From: Escherichia coli
Lineage (GTDB): Bacteria > Pseudomonadota > Gammaproteobacteria > Enterobacterales > Enterobacteriaceae
DNA: 64,000 nt
Assembly (NCBI RefSeq): GCF_048403405.1
Contig: NZ_CP183129.1
Strand: one strand, 5' to 3'
Shown: in pieces, positions 9,001 to 12,000 of the stretch
How the letters are laid out: each line of letters opens with the position of its first letter
Position numbering within the stretch: position 1 is the first letter of the stretch
Position numbers: made by a program

Positions 9001-12000
9001 TAAACTGTTCATGCGTTAGTTTCTCCACAGACACAAAACGCCACGACGCCCGGAGCTGCACACTCGCGGGCGTCACTCTTTTCTGGAGCGCAAAAGATTT
9101 TGTAGACCAGTGCTGCATGCTCTTGGAGCTTCGAAATTGACAGATACAACTCATCATTAATTGCTGTCTGCTCGTGTGGCTCCACGACCCCATCTTCGAT
9201 TGCCGAACGAATCTGCTTTGAGTAATTCCCGATCTGTTCGATGACTTCCAGCAGGCGCTGGTTTATATCGGCGTTCTCTACTTCCTCAATTTCAGGAAGC
9301 GATACGAACACCCCACCAGCAGACTGTGCGACAGCATCCGCAATGTAGTGAGTGCCAGCCGCGCGCTGTAAAACCATTGCCCATCCCAGCGGGAAAATCT
9401 GATCGCCATCGGCACGAAGGCGGTTAAATAATGCGTTCTCTGTTACATCCAGCCAGTCAGCTGCTTCAGCGTAACCACCCGGCAACGCTGCGATAGTTTT
9501 TCTGACAGCTTTCACGTACCACTCAGGCTGTTTTTCTACTTTCCAGTGATACTTACCCACGGTTAGCCTCATCGTTCTGTGGTTAAAAATTGAAGGTGTT
9601 CTGTTAATCTTTCGGATAGATATCCGGTCTTAAGTCAGATTTCGTAATTGCACCTGACGTGCATTGCTCAAGTTTTTTCGCCAGCACAAAACTGGCTTTT
9701 TTATAACCATTGAAAACCAGCCGTAAGTAGCCAGGTGTTGAGCCAACTTTTCCGGCCAACTCGCCCTGCTGTTCTTTGGTTAAAGAGTCCCAATACGCTT
9801 TCATACAATATGTACCTCCGGTATACATATTACATGATTGAAATGAACCTTCAAGATACTTGTACCTTATCGGTACAAAGGTTTTAATTTCGTTATGAAA
9901 ACAATCCATGACATCCGGCGGTCTAACGCCAGAAAACTGAGAGATGGTGTTGGCGGAAATTCATCCTTTGCCACCATGATTGATCGCGAGCCAACCCAAA
10001 CCAGCAGGTTTATGGGGGATGGCGCTACTAAAAATATCGGTGACAGCATGGCACGGCACATCGAAAAATGTTTCGACCTGCCTGTCGGATGGCTTGATCA
10101 AGAACACCAGACAACGAACATCACAAAAAAACCTGATGTTTCAATCACTAACAAACAAATAACGTTAGTCCCTGTCATATCATGGGTACAGGCCGGAGCA
10201 TGGAAAGAAGTTGGCTATTCTGAGGTTGATTTGAGCACAGCAGAAACGTATCCCTGCCCTGTACCCTGTGGCGAAATGACTTATATCTTGCGGGTGATTG
10301 GTGATTCAATGATTGATGAGTACCGCCCTGGAGACATGATTTTTGTTGATCCCGAAGTCCCTGCCTGCCACGGTGACGACGTTATTGCATTGATGCACGA
10401 TACAGGCGAAACCACCTTCAAGCGATTGATAGAAGATGGAACACAGCGTTATCTCAAAGCATTAAACCCAAACTGGCCTGAGCCTTACATTAAGATTAAC
10501 GGTAATTGCTCTATAATTGGTACAGTGATTTTCTCGGGAAAACCAAGAAGATACACAATAAAGGCCTAATCAATATTTATGAACCTGCTTCGGCAGGTTT
10601 TTTTATACTTGACAATGTACCCATGAGATACATAATGTATCCAAAAGAAACATGAGGCAGGCAAGATTCAAACAAAATTTGGTTGTAACACGGCGTATGG
10701 CACATGCGTCGTTAGCGGTCTGGGGACGTTAAAGGGGACAATCCACTTCTTGCTCGGGCAAACAAACCAGGTAGTCGGAATGTGCAAGTCAATGATGATG
10801 CTGATAAGACGCCTAACCAGCGTGGCGATCCGGTTTGACGCCTGGGAAGAGACCAGGGTGCAACGATGAGGGCATTTATGGAGCCGCGACAAAGTGTGGT
10901 GCCGTAACTGGCTAAGTGCTCTCAGCGTTGTGGTAATCCGCGAAATGGCGCGGCGGTAAGTATGGCGGGGTTACTCTTTCCCCGTTGAGGACACCGGATT
11001 GTCAGGTTGACCATACGCCTGAGTGACAACCCCACCACAACAGCCACTGCTTTGGCGGTACCAGTTTGTACACTTGCTTCCGGCTGGTACCGCTCTTTTT
11101 ACAAAACAGAGAAGAGCATCACCGGACGACAGGCTCATAACCCAATCCATCCGGGCGGCTGCCACCGCAGGTGTTCTTCTCTGTTTTGTGGAGAAACCAA
11201 CCGACCTTGCAGGGTCGATATGATGAGGAGCAGCAAAATGGCTAGCGAACGCAGTACTGATGTGCAGGCATTTATCGGGGAGCTGGACGGCGGCGTATTT
11301 GAAACCAAAATCGGCGCAGTTCTCAGTGAAGTCGCTTCCGGTGTGATGAACACGAAAACCAAAGGTAAGGTCTCACTCAACCTGGAAATCGAACCATTTG
11401 ATGAGAACCGTGTGAAAATCAAACACAAACTCTCATATGTTCGCCCGACTAACCGCGGGAAAATTTCCGAAGAAGACACCACCGAAACGCCGATGTATGT
11501 CAATCGCGGTGGTCGCCTGACTATTCTGCAGGAAGACCAGGGACAATTACTGACTCTTGCCGGTGAACCTGACGGAAAACTACGCGCAGCAGGTCATTAA
11601 TATCGTTCTTAATTAACTGATTATTTATCTCATCACTGAATATCTTTATATAGTGAGGACTTATTATGTCTCAGAACTTAGACGCAACCGCAATTAATCA
11701 AATCCATGCCCTTATTTCTGCTCAGGGTGTTAATGAAATTATCAGTAATATTGGTGCCGATGCTGTGGCATTGCCTGAGAATTTCCGCATTCATGATCTG
11801 GAAAAATTTAATTTAAATCGCTTCCGTTTCCGTGGTGCGCTTTCCACTGCCAGCATCGATGACTTTACCCGTTATTCTAAAGATCTTGCAGATGAAGGCA
11901 CCCGCTGCTTTATCGATGCTGATAATATGCGTGCCGTCAGTGTACTTAACCTGGGTACTATTGATGAACCAGGTCACGCAGATAACACCGCCACTCTCAA

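What the first reader, a model, noticed from the sequence alone, without database searches (positions are those of the whole stretch)
10643..11101. ORF-free structured leader between the pL-like promoter and the first early-left gene; no N-like antiterminator
A near-consensus, operator-controlled promoter (10609-10637) fires into about 460 nt that carry no ORF longer than about 30 codons in any plus frame, are GC-rich and full of hairpins, and end in a strong intrinsic terminator (10-bp stem at 11055-11093 plus T-run) with a boxA-like CGCTCTTTTTACAA at its 3' side. The early-left genes downstream must be expressed through this terminator, yet no N-like protein is encoded. This is the arrangement expected for RNA-mediated (HK022 put-like) or otherwise unconventional antitermination, or for a prophage-encoded regulatory ncRNA.
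Basis: partly seen in the sequence, partly recalled or inferred. Interest (0 to 1): 0.6.

Follow-up and report, generated by a model that had tools for sequence, protein, structure and literature searches.

The report
Modular prophage noncoding RNA leader
The roughly 600-base stretch after the prophage's early-left promoter is not an empty leader but a chain of conserved folded RNA modules ending in a DicF/sRNA-17-type small RNA with its own terminator. One module is a widespread phage RNA that no database or paper I could search describes as an RNA.

Summary
A repressor-controlled promoter (10609-10636) fires into an untranslated, G+C-rich, strongly folded leader that ends in a hairpin plus U-run (stem 11054-11094).

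The put-like antitermination reading is not supported. The alternative reading, a prophage regulatory ncRNA, is supported.

The leader is a mosaic of modules:
- **A (10688-10865):** a double-pseudoknot domain, with 16 of 31 pairs compensatory across 75 distinct sequences. It is absent from Rfam. It occurs in lambdoid, P1-like and phiV10/epsilon15-like phages, almost always next to a tRNA or a tRNA-slot element.
- **V (10859-10930):** a long helix and likely RNase III site.
- **B (10927-11041):** 93% identical to the 5' part of the 190-nt DicF precursor of the K-12 Qin prophage.
- **S (11042-11100):** identical to the 3' part of the published 193-nt sRNA-17 of E. coli K1.
- **C (11101-11192):** a 20-bp hairpin ahead of yfdP.

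Best explanation: this is a polycistronic ncRNA precursor and attenuator. Termination at S plus RNase III/E processing yields the small RNA. Leak-through expresses yfdPQR and xis without any N protein.

The function of module A is unknown and is the novel part.

The parts
10581..10605 (+). Intrinsic terminator of the cI-like gene ymfK, immediately upstream of the promoter
   Evidence: An 8-pair stem plus T-run. cI lies on the same strand, so read-through from cI could also feed the leader (inference).
10609..10636 (+). pL-like sigma-70 promoter, TTGACA-16-CATAAT; predicted start near A10643
   Evidence: Scores 11 of 12. The identical promoter sits 52-54 nt upstream of module A in many viral contigs.
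10615..10634 (.). Operator-like imperfect palindrome ATGTACCCATGAGATACATA overlapping the promoter
   Evidence: A direct repeat of 9810-9829 in the cI/cro intergenic region at 75% identity.
10643..10687 (+). A-rich 5' segment of the transcript, including TTTGGTTGTAAC, which is shared with the P1 and P7 copies
10688..10865 (+). Module A, a conserved double-pseudoknot RNA domain. It comprises hairpin P1 (loop UGGCACA), long-range helix P2, hairpin P4 (loop YUCACCA), hairpin P6 (loop GAAGAGA), pseudoknot PK1 (GCACA x UGUGC) and pseudoknot PK2 (NACC x GGUN).
   Evidence: Covariance model R2 scores 143 bits here and finds 88 copies in 99 loci. 98.7% of cells are paired against 45% or less in slid controls, and 16 of 31 pairs show compensatory change, with 0 of 500 shuffles as good. 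There is no Rfam match.
10859..10930 (+). Module V, a long irregular helix. Its closing duplex CAACGAUGAGGGCAUU / AAGUGCUCUCAGCGUUG abuts module B. It is the likely RNase III site that separates A from B-S.
   Evidence: -33.9 kcal/mol, z = -4.95. The closing duplex is kept through compensatory variants such as AAGAGCA/TGCTCTT and AAGAGCG/CGCTCTT. The 5' ends of sRNA-17 and of the 190-nt DicF species map at the homologous junction.
10927..11041 (+). Module B (type B1), a four-way, cloverleaf-like domain closed by GUUGUGGU/ACCACAAC, with a possible GUAUGG x CCAUAC pseudoknot. It is homologous to the 5' part of the 190-nt DicF precursor. It occupies the slot that holds tRNA-Arg(UCU) in phiV10/SPN1S-type phages.
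   Evidence: 93% identical to Qin. Model R1 scores 138 bits. 95.7% of cells are paired against 58% or less in slid controls, and 10 pairs are compensatory. The tRNA occupies the same slot in related phages.
11042..11100 (+). Module S, a small-RNA unit in the DicF slot: a single-stranded 5' part AGCCACUGCUUU, a 13-pair hairpin (11054-11066 with 11082-11094) and a CUUUUU tail. It is identical to the 3' part of sRNA-17.
   Evidence: The DicF Rfam model scores only 11.8 bits against a gathering score of 48. At least 12 different fillings of this slot follow B1 in viral contigs.
11101..11192 (+). Module C, a hairpin with a 20-bp perfect lower stem between the terminator and the yfdP ribosome-binding site. 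It is a second candidate RNase III site.
   Evidence: -44.3 kcal/mol, z = -6.2. It is shared with CPS-53-type yfdP leaders. Salmonella phage F1055 carries a compensatory change in the stem.
11200..11240 (+). A small hairpin (11200-11219), the GAGGAG ribosome-binding site (11225-11230) and the yfdP start codon (11238-11240)

Best explanation
The leader is a polycistronic noncoding-RNA precursor that also acts as a transcriptional attenuator of the early-left operon.

1. Transcription from the repressor-controlled pL-like promoter, and possibly read-through from cI, runs through modules A, V, B and S.
2. Most polymerases stop at the S hairpin and U-run. This leaves an RNA that ends at about 11099.
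3. RNase III cuts the V helix at the A/B junction, around 10926. That releases a B+S species of about 175 nt, the counterpart of the 190-nt DicF species and of the 193-nt sRNA-17.
4. RNase E may trim this species to a terminator-bearing small RNA of about 55-60 nt that acts in trans.
5. The polymerases that leak through S continue through hairpin C into yfdP, yfdQ, yfdR and xis.

No N-like factor is needed. In a lysogen the terminator insulates these genes.

Shown: homology, structure, and the published RNA ends in relatives. Inferred: processing in this strain, leakiness of the terminator, and trans action of S. Module A is a separate, conserved structured RNA released from the same precursor, and its function is unknown.
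For: **Homology of B to the DicF precursor.**
- B is 93% identical to the Qin segment immediately 5' of DicF.
- In Qin, a 190-nt species with an RNase III-dependent 5' end and a 53-nt RNase E-dependent species come from one polycistronic transcript with no internal promoter.
- Both terminated (1146 nt) and read-through (1608 nt) transcripts exist there (PMC10448788).
- Counting 190 nt back from the DicF terminator places the 5' end 1-6 nt before GTTGTGG in L002 (inference).

**Identity of S with sRNA-17.**
- S matches the sRNA-17 full-length primer exactly at 11068-11099.
- sRNA-17 is 193 nt by 5' and 3' RACE and Northern blot, and it rises in stationary phase.
- Its 5' end, CGTTGTGG, is at the homologous junction.
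- The authors' qRT-PCR amplicon runs from the start of module A (10677-10698) to the end of the B slot. A and B are therefore on one transcript.
- This window's strain, YDC107, appears in their alignment as a 'degenerative sRNA-17'.

**Termination works in vivo.** yfdP gave 0.5 reads in wild-type RS218 while sRNA-17 was visible on a Northern blot.

**No internal promoter.** No promoter-like site lies on the plus strand between 10640 and 11100.

**Structure.**
- Covariation supports A and B.
- V and C are long near-perfect duplexes suited to RNase III.

**Conserved arrangement.** The layout cI, pL, long noncoding leader, small-RNA terminator, first ORF, with no N annotated, recurs in mEp390 and in a Stx2a phage.
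Against: - There are no RNA data for this exact variant (B1+S). All experimental ends come from relatives.
- Sun et al. interpret the 5' end of sRNA-17 as a primary start under an ArcA-regulated promoter lying in what I call modules A and V. Their RACE did not distinguish primary from processed ends.
- The 95-fold rise of yfdP in their deletion mutant may come from the inserted resistance cassette and not from loss of attenuation. Their deletion arms keep the terminator hairpin.
- Hfq binding and targets of S are unknown. The loop of S is polymorphic among copies.
- The explanation gives no role to module A, the most conserved part of the leader.
- RNase III cleavage of V in this context is inferred, and Qin lacks module A.
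Confidence: 0.6

Rival explanations
1. Module A is a cis-acting processive antiterminator RNA. It would work like HK022 put without being related to it: it binds the transcribing RNA polymerase and lets it read through the S terminator, and through Rho sites in the long untranslated leader. That would replace N in these N-less lambdoid phages.
For: - A lies 45-100 nt downstream of repressor-controlled early promoters in lambdoid and phiV10-type phages, and at the predicted start site in L197 and L198.
- It has about 35 invariant unpaired nucleotides across phages that share no proteins, which points to a host partner.
- One or two intrinsic terminators always follow it in non-P1 contexts.
- No N gene is present.
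- A's P1 stem shares CGGCG/CGUCG and the flanking CAUGCGUCG with put stem I. This is a weak, post hoc resemblance.
Against: - A shows no homology to put by blastn, nhmmer or covariance model.
- In P1 and P7, A sits 2.4 kb from the operon promoter, just after a tRNA and just before ban.
- In RS218 the RNA ends at the S terminator and yfdP is silent although A is upstream.
- In phiV10-type phages, A, the tRNA and the terminator look like a self-contained ncRNA unit closed by two terminators.
Confidence: 0.13
2. B+S is an independent small-RNA gene with its own ArcA-repressed promoter located inside what I call modules A and V, as Sun et al. 2020 proposed. On this reading the conservation of A reflects promoter and regulatory DNA, not RNA.
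For: The published model for sRNA-17 includes an EMSA of phospho-ArcA on the A+V fragment, lower expression in blood, and a RACE 5' end at CGTTGTGG.
Against: - No sigma-70-like site lies upstream of 10926 within A or V.
- A shows base-pair covariation on the transcribed strand, including pseudoknot pairs, which DNA-level regulation does not explain.
- The authors' own qRT-PCR amplicon starts at the 5' end of A.
- In Qin the homologous 5' end depends on RNase III and no internal promoter was found.
- The EMSA used 20-80 micromolar protein.
Confidence: 0.12
3. Module A is a ligand- or factor-sensing riboregulator that sets how much transcription passes the S terminator or how the precursor is processed. 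The choice of GUUG (10927-10930) between the V helix (partner CAAC at 10861-10864) and the B closing stem (partner CAAC at 11038-11041) could provide the switch.
For: A has a compact double-pseudoknot core with invariant junction nucleotides, like riboswitch aptamers. The V and B pairings for GUUG are mutually exclusive. In some loci A sits directly ahead of ORFs as a 5' UTR (L174, L224).
Against: No ligand or expression platform was identified. A tRNA in place of B gives the same layout with no obvious switch. In P1 no terminator follows A.
Confidence: 0.08
4. The region encodes small proteins: the 39-codon plus-strand ORF, the 64- and 74-codon minus-strand ORFs, or an N-terminal extension of YfdP.
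For: Mechanical ORFs exist. Two of them hit PHROG families of unknown function, phrog_3651 and phrog_33599. Some phage records annotate hypothetical proteins here.
Against: - Copies of A and of B differ in length by amounts that are not multiples of three. A lengths fall 37/24/14 across the three residue classes modulo 3. B lengths are 116-129 nt.
- No frame of A is open in all copies.
- The substitutions are compensatory for RNA helices.
- PGAP annotates nothing here.
- The PHROG hits are best explained by spurious gene calls on conserved noncoding DNA.
Confidence: 0.02

Closest known systems
DicF precursor of the Qin prophage (dicBF operon, E. coli K-12; Rfam RF00039 covers the 53-nt DicF)
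   Same: - Same place in the phage map: early-left operon downstream of the cI-like repressor.
- Module B is 93% identical to the segment 5' of DicF.
- The small-RNA slot has the same scaffold, UUUGGCGG...CCGCC-UUUUU.
- Known biogenesis is by termination plus RNase III and RNase E, with partial read-through to downstream genes.
   Different: - The 19 nt carrying the DicF 5' seed (UAUCAAUUUUCUGGUGACG) are absent here, and the hairpin differs.
- The DicF model scores 11.8 bits against a gathering score of 48.
- Qin has three small ORFs (ydfABC) where this leader has modules A and V.
sRNA-17 of E. coli K1 RS218 (Sun et al. 2020, PMC7719688)
   Same: - Same locus, between cI/pL and yfdP.
- Module A, module V and module S are the same.
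- The 3' 60 nt are identical, including the terminator.
- The 5' end lies at the same GTTGTGG junction.
   Different: - The body of sRNA-17 is the unrelated B2 filling (GTGAATGCGCAGGCTGATGCGCGAAAG...). It is absent from this window, which carries the DicF-type B1.
- The authors treat A and V as promoter DNA and did not link sRNA-17 to DicF.
HK022 putL/putR and the HK639 putL-like antiterminator RNAs
   Same: A structured RNA close to the start of the pL transcript in lambdoid phages that lack a functional N, with terminators downstream.
   Different: - No sequence or profile similarity.
- put is about 70 nt with two stem-loops. Module A is 160-180 nt with four helices and two pseudoknots.
- Termination at S evidently occurs in relatives.
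Lambda N/nut antitermination
   Same: The position of the leader between pL and the first early-left gene. A boxA-like string at 11091-11104.
   Different: No N protein is present. The boxA-like string is part of the terminator tail and is not conserved among homologous leaders.
Large phage ncRNAs that sit beside tRNA genes: GOLLD, ROOL, and the T4 tRNA-cluster stable RNAs (from general knowledge, not tested here)
   Same: Module A is a conserved structured RNA of unknown function carried by phages. It almost always adjoins a tRNA or a tRNA-slot element.
   Different: There is no Rfam hit to GOLLD, ROOL or any other family. A is much smaller, and it occurs in enterobacterial hosts.

Membership tests
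DicF (Rfam RF00039) | Reaches the family's gathering score of 48 bits | tested here: not met
   11.8 bits, E = 4.8, at 11051-11095, aligned to model positions 12-52 only. The K-12 copy scores 76.7 bits.
DicF (Rfam RF00039) | 5' seed UUUCUGGUGACG upstream of the terminator hairpin | tested here: not met
   A 19-nt gap in the window relative to Qin.
DicF (Rfam RF00039) | Located in the early-left operon directly 3' of the conserved precursor domain (module B) and ending in an intrinsic terminator | tested here: met
sRNA-17 (PMC7719688) | 3' part and terminator identical to the published RNA | tested here: met
   The full-length primer matches 11068-11099 exactly. The strain is listed in their supplementary alignment.
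sRNA-17 (PMC7719688) | 5' body (B2 filling, CGTTGTGGTGAATGCGCAGGCTGATGCGCGAAA...) | tested here: not met
   No match in the window with up to 3 mismatches. The window carries B1 instead.
HK022-type put antiterminator RNA | Sequence or profile similarity to putL, putR or the HK639 putL-like RNA | tested here: not met
   blastn and nhmmer gave chance-level hits only, none at the put loci. Model R2 has no hit in HK022 or HK639.
HK022-type put antiterminator RNA | About 70 nt folded as two stem-loops | tested here: not met
   Module A has four helices and two pseudoknots over 160-180 nt.
HK022-type put antiterminator RNA | Lies shortly downstream of an early promoter and upstream of terminators | tested here: met
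   45 nt from the predicted start, with the S terminator 190 nt further on.
HK022-type put antiterminator RNA | Suppresses termination in cis through the beta-prime zinc-binding domain | not testable with these tools
   Needs in vitro transcription or rpoC mutants. Published data on relatives suggest that termination does occur.
Lambda N/nut system | An N-like arginine-rich antiterminator protein encoded in the operon | tested here: not met
   PHROG scans of all left-operon ORFs and of the leader ORFs gave no antiterminator family.
Lambda N/nut system | A conserved boxA element | tested here: inconclusive
   CGCTCTTTTTACAA is present, but homologous leaders have CCGCCCTTTTT at that position.
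tRNA | Recognised as a tRNA (module B occupies the slot of tRNA-Arg in related phages) | tested here: not met
   ARAGORN finds none in 10000-12000. The Rfam tRNA model has no hit there. Only the first bases of the acceptor-like closing stem, GTGG, are shared with the tRNA.

The most novel reading that the evidence does not exclude
Module A (10688-10865) is a previously undescribed family of phage structured RNAs. It is a double-pseudoknot domain of about 170 nt with some 35 invariant unpaired nucleotides. It is carried by lambdoid, P1-like and epsilon15/phiV10-like phages of Enterobacteriaceae, always beside a tRNA or a swappable tRNA-slot cassette.

On this reading it binds a conserved host machine. 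Candidates are RNA polymerase (as a put-independent antiterminator), a tRNA-processing or tRNA-targeting enzyme, or a defence system. The tRNA-slot cassette system (tRNA-Arg, B1, B2 and others, followed by variable small RNAs) would then be a modular platform for exchanging phage regulatory RNAs.
Probability: 0.4. Interest if true: 0.8.

Novelty: new variant of a known kind. Interest (0 to 1): 0.6.

Why it matters
- **It links two literatures.** The well-studied DicF locus of K-12 and the isolated report of sRNA-17 in meningitis E. coli are shown to be fillings of one modular small-RNA cassette in the early-left leader of lambdoid prophages. Parts of this leader occur in 4746 of 5426 complete E. 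coli genomes.
- **It reinterprets a published promoter.** The region published as the 'promoter' of sRNA-17 is a transcribed, covarying RNA domain.
- **It suggests how N-less phages manage early-left expression.** N-less lambdoid phages, including Stx2-converting phages, may insulate and then express xis and int with a leaky small-RNA terminator in place of N.
- **It gives a testable new RNA.** Module A is strongly supported and is present in the model phage P1, where genetics is easy.

Tried and rejected
- **Rfam:** scans of the leader and of five related loci at E up to 1, and up to 10 for S and C, found no family for A, V, B or C. DicF appeared only at 11.8 bits.
- **tRNA or tmRNA in the leader:** none found.
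- **put homology:** rejected.
- **Anti-sRNAs and other prophage sRNAs:** AgvB/AsxR, the Pas sRNAs and HnrS are all late-region loci. svsR/co293 lies at the 3' end of cI, not in the leader.
- **YfdP as part of a mobile cassette with A:** the phiV10 ORF downstream of the cassette is unrelated to YfdP.
- **Distant B1 relatives in loci recruited through module A:** none. B1 is a tight family, and the other slot fillings are unrelated in sequence.
- **Protein-coding reading:** rejected.
- **Literature not retrievable:** the P1 genome paper, and literature on the P1 ban leader.
- **RS218 genome:** not present in the collection.
- **Mapping EcOnc Hfq peaks of strain Sakai to this locus:** considered, but not pursued for cost.
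- **Target prediction for S:** not done, because no host genome was available to the script tool.
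Full report
**1. Context**

The window is an E. coli lambdoid prophage. The 671 bases around the finding are identical in strain YDC107.

The local gene order is as follows:
- cro-like ymfT on the minus strand;
- e14-type cI ymfK at 9895-10569 on the plus strand, with a terminator at 10581-10600;
- the promoter;
- about 600 unannotated bases;
- yfdP (11238-11600), yfdQ, the 5'-deoxynucleotidase yfdR, two unknown genes and an excisionase.

None of the left-operon products is an N-like antiterminator.

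**2. Check of the observation**

Promoter and operator:
- The promoter TTGACA-16-CATAAT (10609-10636) scores 11 of 12.
- A 20-nt operator-like palindrome overlaps it and recurs between cI and cro.

Composition and folding:
- The leader is richer in G+C and in G than its flanks.
- The transcribed strand folds better than shuffles (z = -3.0). The other strand does not (z = -1.35).

Terminator:
- The hairpin at 11054-11094 has 13 pairs (-21.5 kcal/mol) followed by C-UUUUU.

Two details needed correction:
1. Mechanical ORFs of 39 codons and more do exist, but nothing supports them as coding.
2. The boxA-like string is not conserved among homologous leaders.

**3. The leader is a mosaic**

BLAST against complete E. 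coli genomes and against phages showed that different parts of the leader have different relatives.

- **10927-11033** matches K-12 at 93% identity. The matching stretch lies between ydfC and dicB in the Qin prophage, ending just before the Rfam-confirmed DicF.
- **10690-10933** matches unannotated DNA in two other settings:
  - upstream of tRNA-Arg(UCU) in phiV10/SPN1S-type podoviruses;
  - between a tRNA and ban in P1 and P7.
- **11053-11240** is shared with CPS-53-type yfdP leaders.

**4. Module B and the small-RNA slot**

A scan of viral contigs with a 19-mer from B returned at least 120 loci.
- B is conserved among them.
- The 50-80 nt that follow B vary. Fillings include classic DicF, the window type, and at least ten others. 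Most fillings that could be read through to their 3' end share UUGGCGG...CCGCC-UUUU.

Structure of B:
- A covariance model (R1) and pair counting support a four-helix, cloverleaf-like fold.
- 95.7% of cells are paired, against 58% or less when partners are slid.
- 10 pairs show changes on both sides, and 0 of 500 shuffles did as well.
- A GUAUGG x CCAUAC pseudoknot is possible, but both sides are invariant.

Experimental data from Qin (PMC10448788):
- A 190-nt species with an RNase III-dependent 5' end and the 53-nt RNase E-dependent DicF both derive from the dicBp transcript.
- No internal promoter was found.
- Both a terminated and a read-through transcript were seen.
- Counting 190 nt back from the DicF terminator puts the 5' end at the base of B's closing stem (my inference).

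**5. sRNA-17**

A literature search on yfdP led to Sun et al. 2020 (PMC7719688).
- Their 193-nt RNA was mapped by RACE and confirmed by Northern blot.
- Its primers are given in their Table S2.
- One full-length primer is the reverse complement of 11068-11099.
- The other starts at CGTTGTGG and continues with a different slot filling (B2). B2 is found in phage phiSTEC1575-Stx2k and is absent from the window.

The window's S module is therefore the 3' part of sRNA-17. Its B module is the DicF-precursor type, so this locus is a recombinant of two known small-RNA loci. YDC107 is listed in their supplementary alignment as a 'degenerative' copy.

Two points about their design matter here:
- Their 'promoter' fragment is module A plus V.
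- Their qRT-PCR amplicon begins at 10677-10698, so A and B are co-transcribed.

Expression data from RS218:
- Wild type showed sRNA-17 on a Northern blot but almost no yfdP reads.
- A cassette replacement raised yfdP 95-fold. This is compatible with attenuation but is confounded by the cassette.

**6. Module A**

Distribution:
- A scan with its invariant 19-mer returned at least 120 viral loci.
- It also returned 25 genome loci, nearly all from Enterobacteriaceae.

Model and pair counting on 88 hits (75 distinct sequences):
- 98.7% of cells are paired, against 45% or less when slid.
- 16 of 31 pairs have compensatory changes, in 199 cells.
- No shuffle was as good.
- One compensatory pair lies in pseudoknot PK2 (C-G to A-U in 17 sequences).
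- Pseudoknot PK1 is invariant.

Coding is unlikely, because copy lengths are not multiples of three apart and no frame is open throughout.

A is absent from Rfam. It is also absent from HK022, HK639 and Qin.

Neighbours of the 153 evaluable distinct copies:

| Neighbour | Copies |
|---|---|
| B1 downstream | 47 |
| tRNA-Arg downstream | 34 |
| Another filling behind the same GTTGTGG junction | 31 |
| B2 downstream | 17 |
| tRNA upstream, called tRNA-Met (CAT) by ARAGORN and annotated tRNA-Ile in P7 (P1 type) | 13 |
| None of these | 11 |

In lambdoid and phiV10-type phages, A lies 45-100 nt from an operator-bearing promoter. In P1 it lies 2.4 kb into the ban operon.

**7. Modules V and C**

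*Module V*
- A 16-20 bp closing duplex joins the 3' flank of A to the bases just before B.
- The duplex is kept by compensatory variants across loci. It folds at z = -4.95.
- It ends where both published 5' ends map. That fits RNase III cleavage.

*Module C*
- It is a hairpin with a 20-bp perfect stem (z = -6.2) between the terminator and the yfdP ribosome-binding site.
- Salmonella phage F1055 carries a compensatory change in the stem.

**8. Mechanism**

I commit to the precursor-and-attenuator model given under best explanation (confidence 0.6).

The put-like reading fails the membership tests. The evidence that termination at S operates in relatives also weakens it. It is not excluded for module A (0.13).

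The published independent-promoter model conflicts with several results (0.12):
- the covariation in A;
- the lack of a promoter-like site;
- the authors' own amplicon;
- the Qin data.

**9. Novelty**

- The S and B parts are known under two names that, as far as I could find, had not been connected.
- The particular B1+S combination is a new variant.
- I could find no paper or database entry that describes module A as an RNA.
- Limits of that search: only open-access text was searched, the key P1 and put papers were not readable, and all A and B copies were recruited by exact 19-mers, which inflates apparent core invariance.

Noticed in passing
window 8464-8551 (-) and 8576-8652 (-): Rfam hits above gathering score to C4 antisense RNA (82.8 bits) and isrK (55.4 bits), side by side in the early-right operon. 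They lie inside a mechanical 278-codon ORF that PGAP splits into 'ash family' and DUF4222 genes. This prophage therefore carries a second RNA-based control region.
   Followed up: no
window 20065-20382 (+): Three tandem Rfam tRNA hits of 83-84 nt each (40.8-48.5 bits). They were not checked with ARAGORN.
   Followed up: no
window 1319-1758 (-): A full-length cspA thermoregulator hit at 156.7 bits.
   Followed up: no
L004 about 2700-2730 and L005 (P1 and P7, between module A and ban): Just after module A the P1/P7 leader contains ATCCTGATTTTCTGGTGATGAC. This closely resembles the DicF 5' seed region TATCAATTTTCTGGTGACG, the very part that is missing from the window's S module.
   Followed up: partly
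L249 4311-4249 (-) and L275 34312-34187 (-), compared with window 10690-10712: Stem I of HK022 and HK639 putL (ACGGCGCG...CCATGCGTCGG) shares the CGGCG/CGTCG stem and a 9-mer, CATGCGTCG, with hairpin P1 of module A. It is too short for BLAST or nhmmer to report and may be chance.
   Followed up: partly
window 10927-10930 versus 10861-10864 and 11038-11041: GUUG at the A/B junction can pair either with the CAAC that extends the V helix or with the CAAC that closes module B. The two structures are mutually exclusive for these bases.
   Followed up: no
L276 3900-3960; also L089, L095, L076, L171, L240: Several unrelated slot fillings share a GU-rich 5' segment, (T)GCTGTGTGTAGTC, directly before the TTGGCGG hairpin. 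This suggests another small-RNA seed family in the DicF slot.
   Followed up: no
window 10974-11165 (-) and 11023-11220 (+): ORFs across modules B, S and C hit PHROG families of unknown function: phrog_3651 (E = 1.6e-36) and phrog_33599 (E = 1.1e-15). These families probably stem from gene calls on conserved noncoding RNA DNA, for example the 190-codon 'hypothetical protein' on the opposite strand in phage F1055.
   Followed up: partly
window about 10500-10605: A 2026 paper places a co293-like small RNA (svsR) at the 3' end of the cI gene of a related e14-type prophage (PMC12803456). The homologous 3' end and terminator of ymfK lie just upstream of the promoter here. This was not examined.
   Followed up: no
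L002 3182-3391 and L004 1198-1318: Sub-threshold STnc100 matches (34-38 bits against a gathering score of 47) lie directly after DicF in Qin and inside the P1 ban operon.
   Followed up: no
L082 about 2410-2640: In one viral contig module B breaks off after 55 nt. It continues as the 3' end of 16S rRNA (GGATCACCTCCTTA) followed by sequence that looks like a tRNA gene. This is probably an assembly chimera.
   Followed up: no
L251 and L266 (genome contigs): Full-length module A copies sit on short contigs binned as Bacillota or Lachnospiraceae MAGs. These are most likely mis-binned enterobacterial phage DNA.
   Followed up: no
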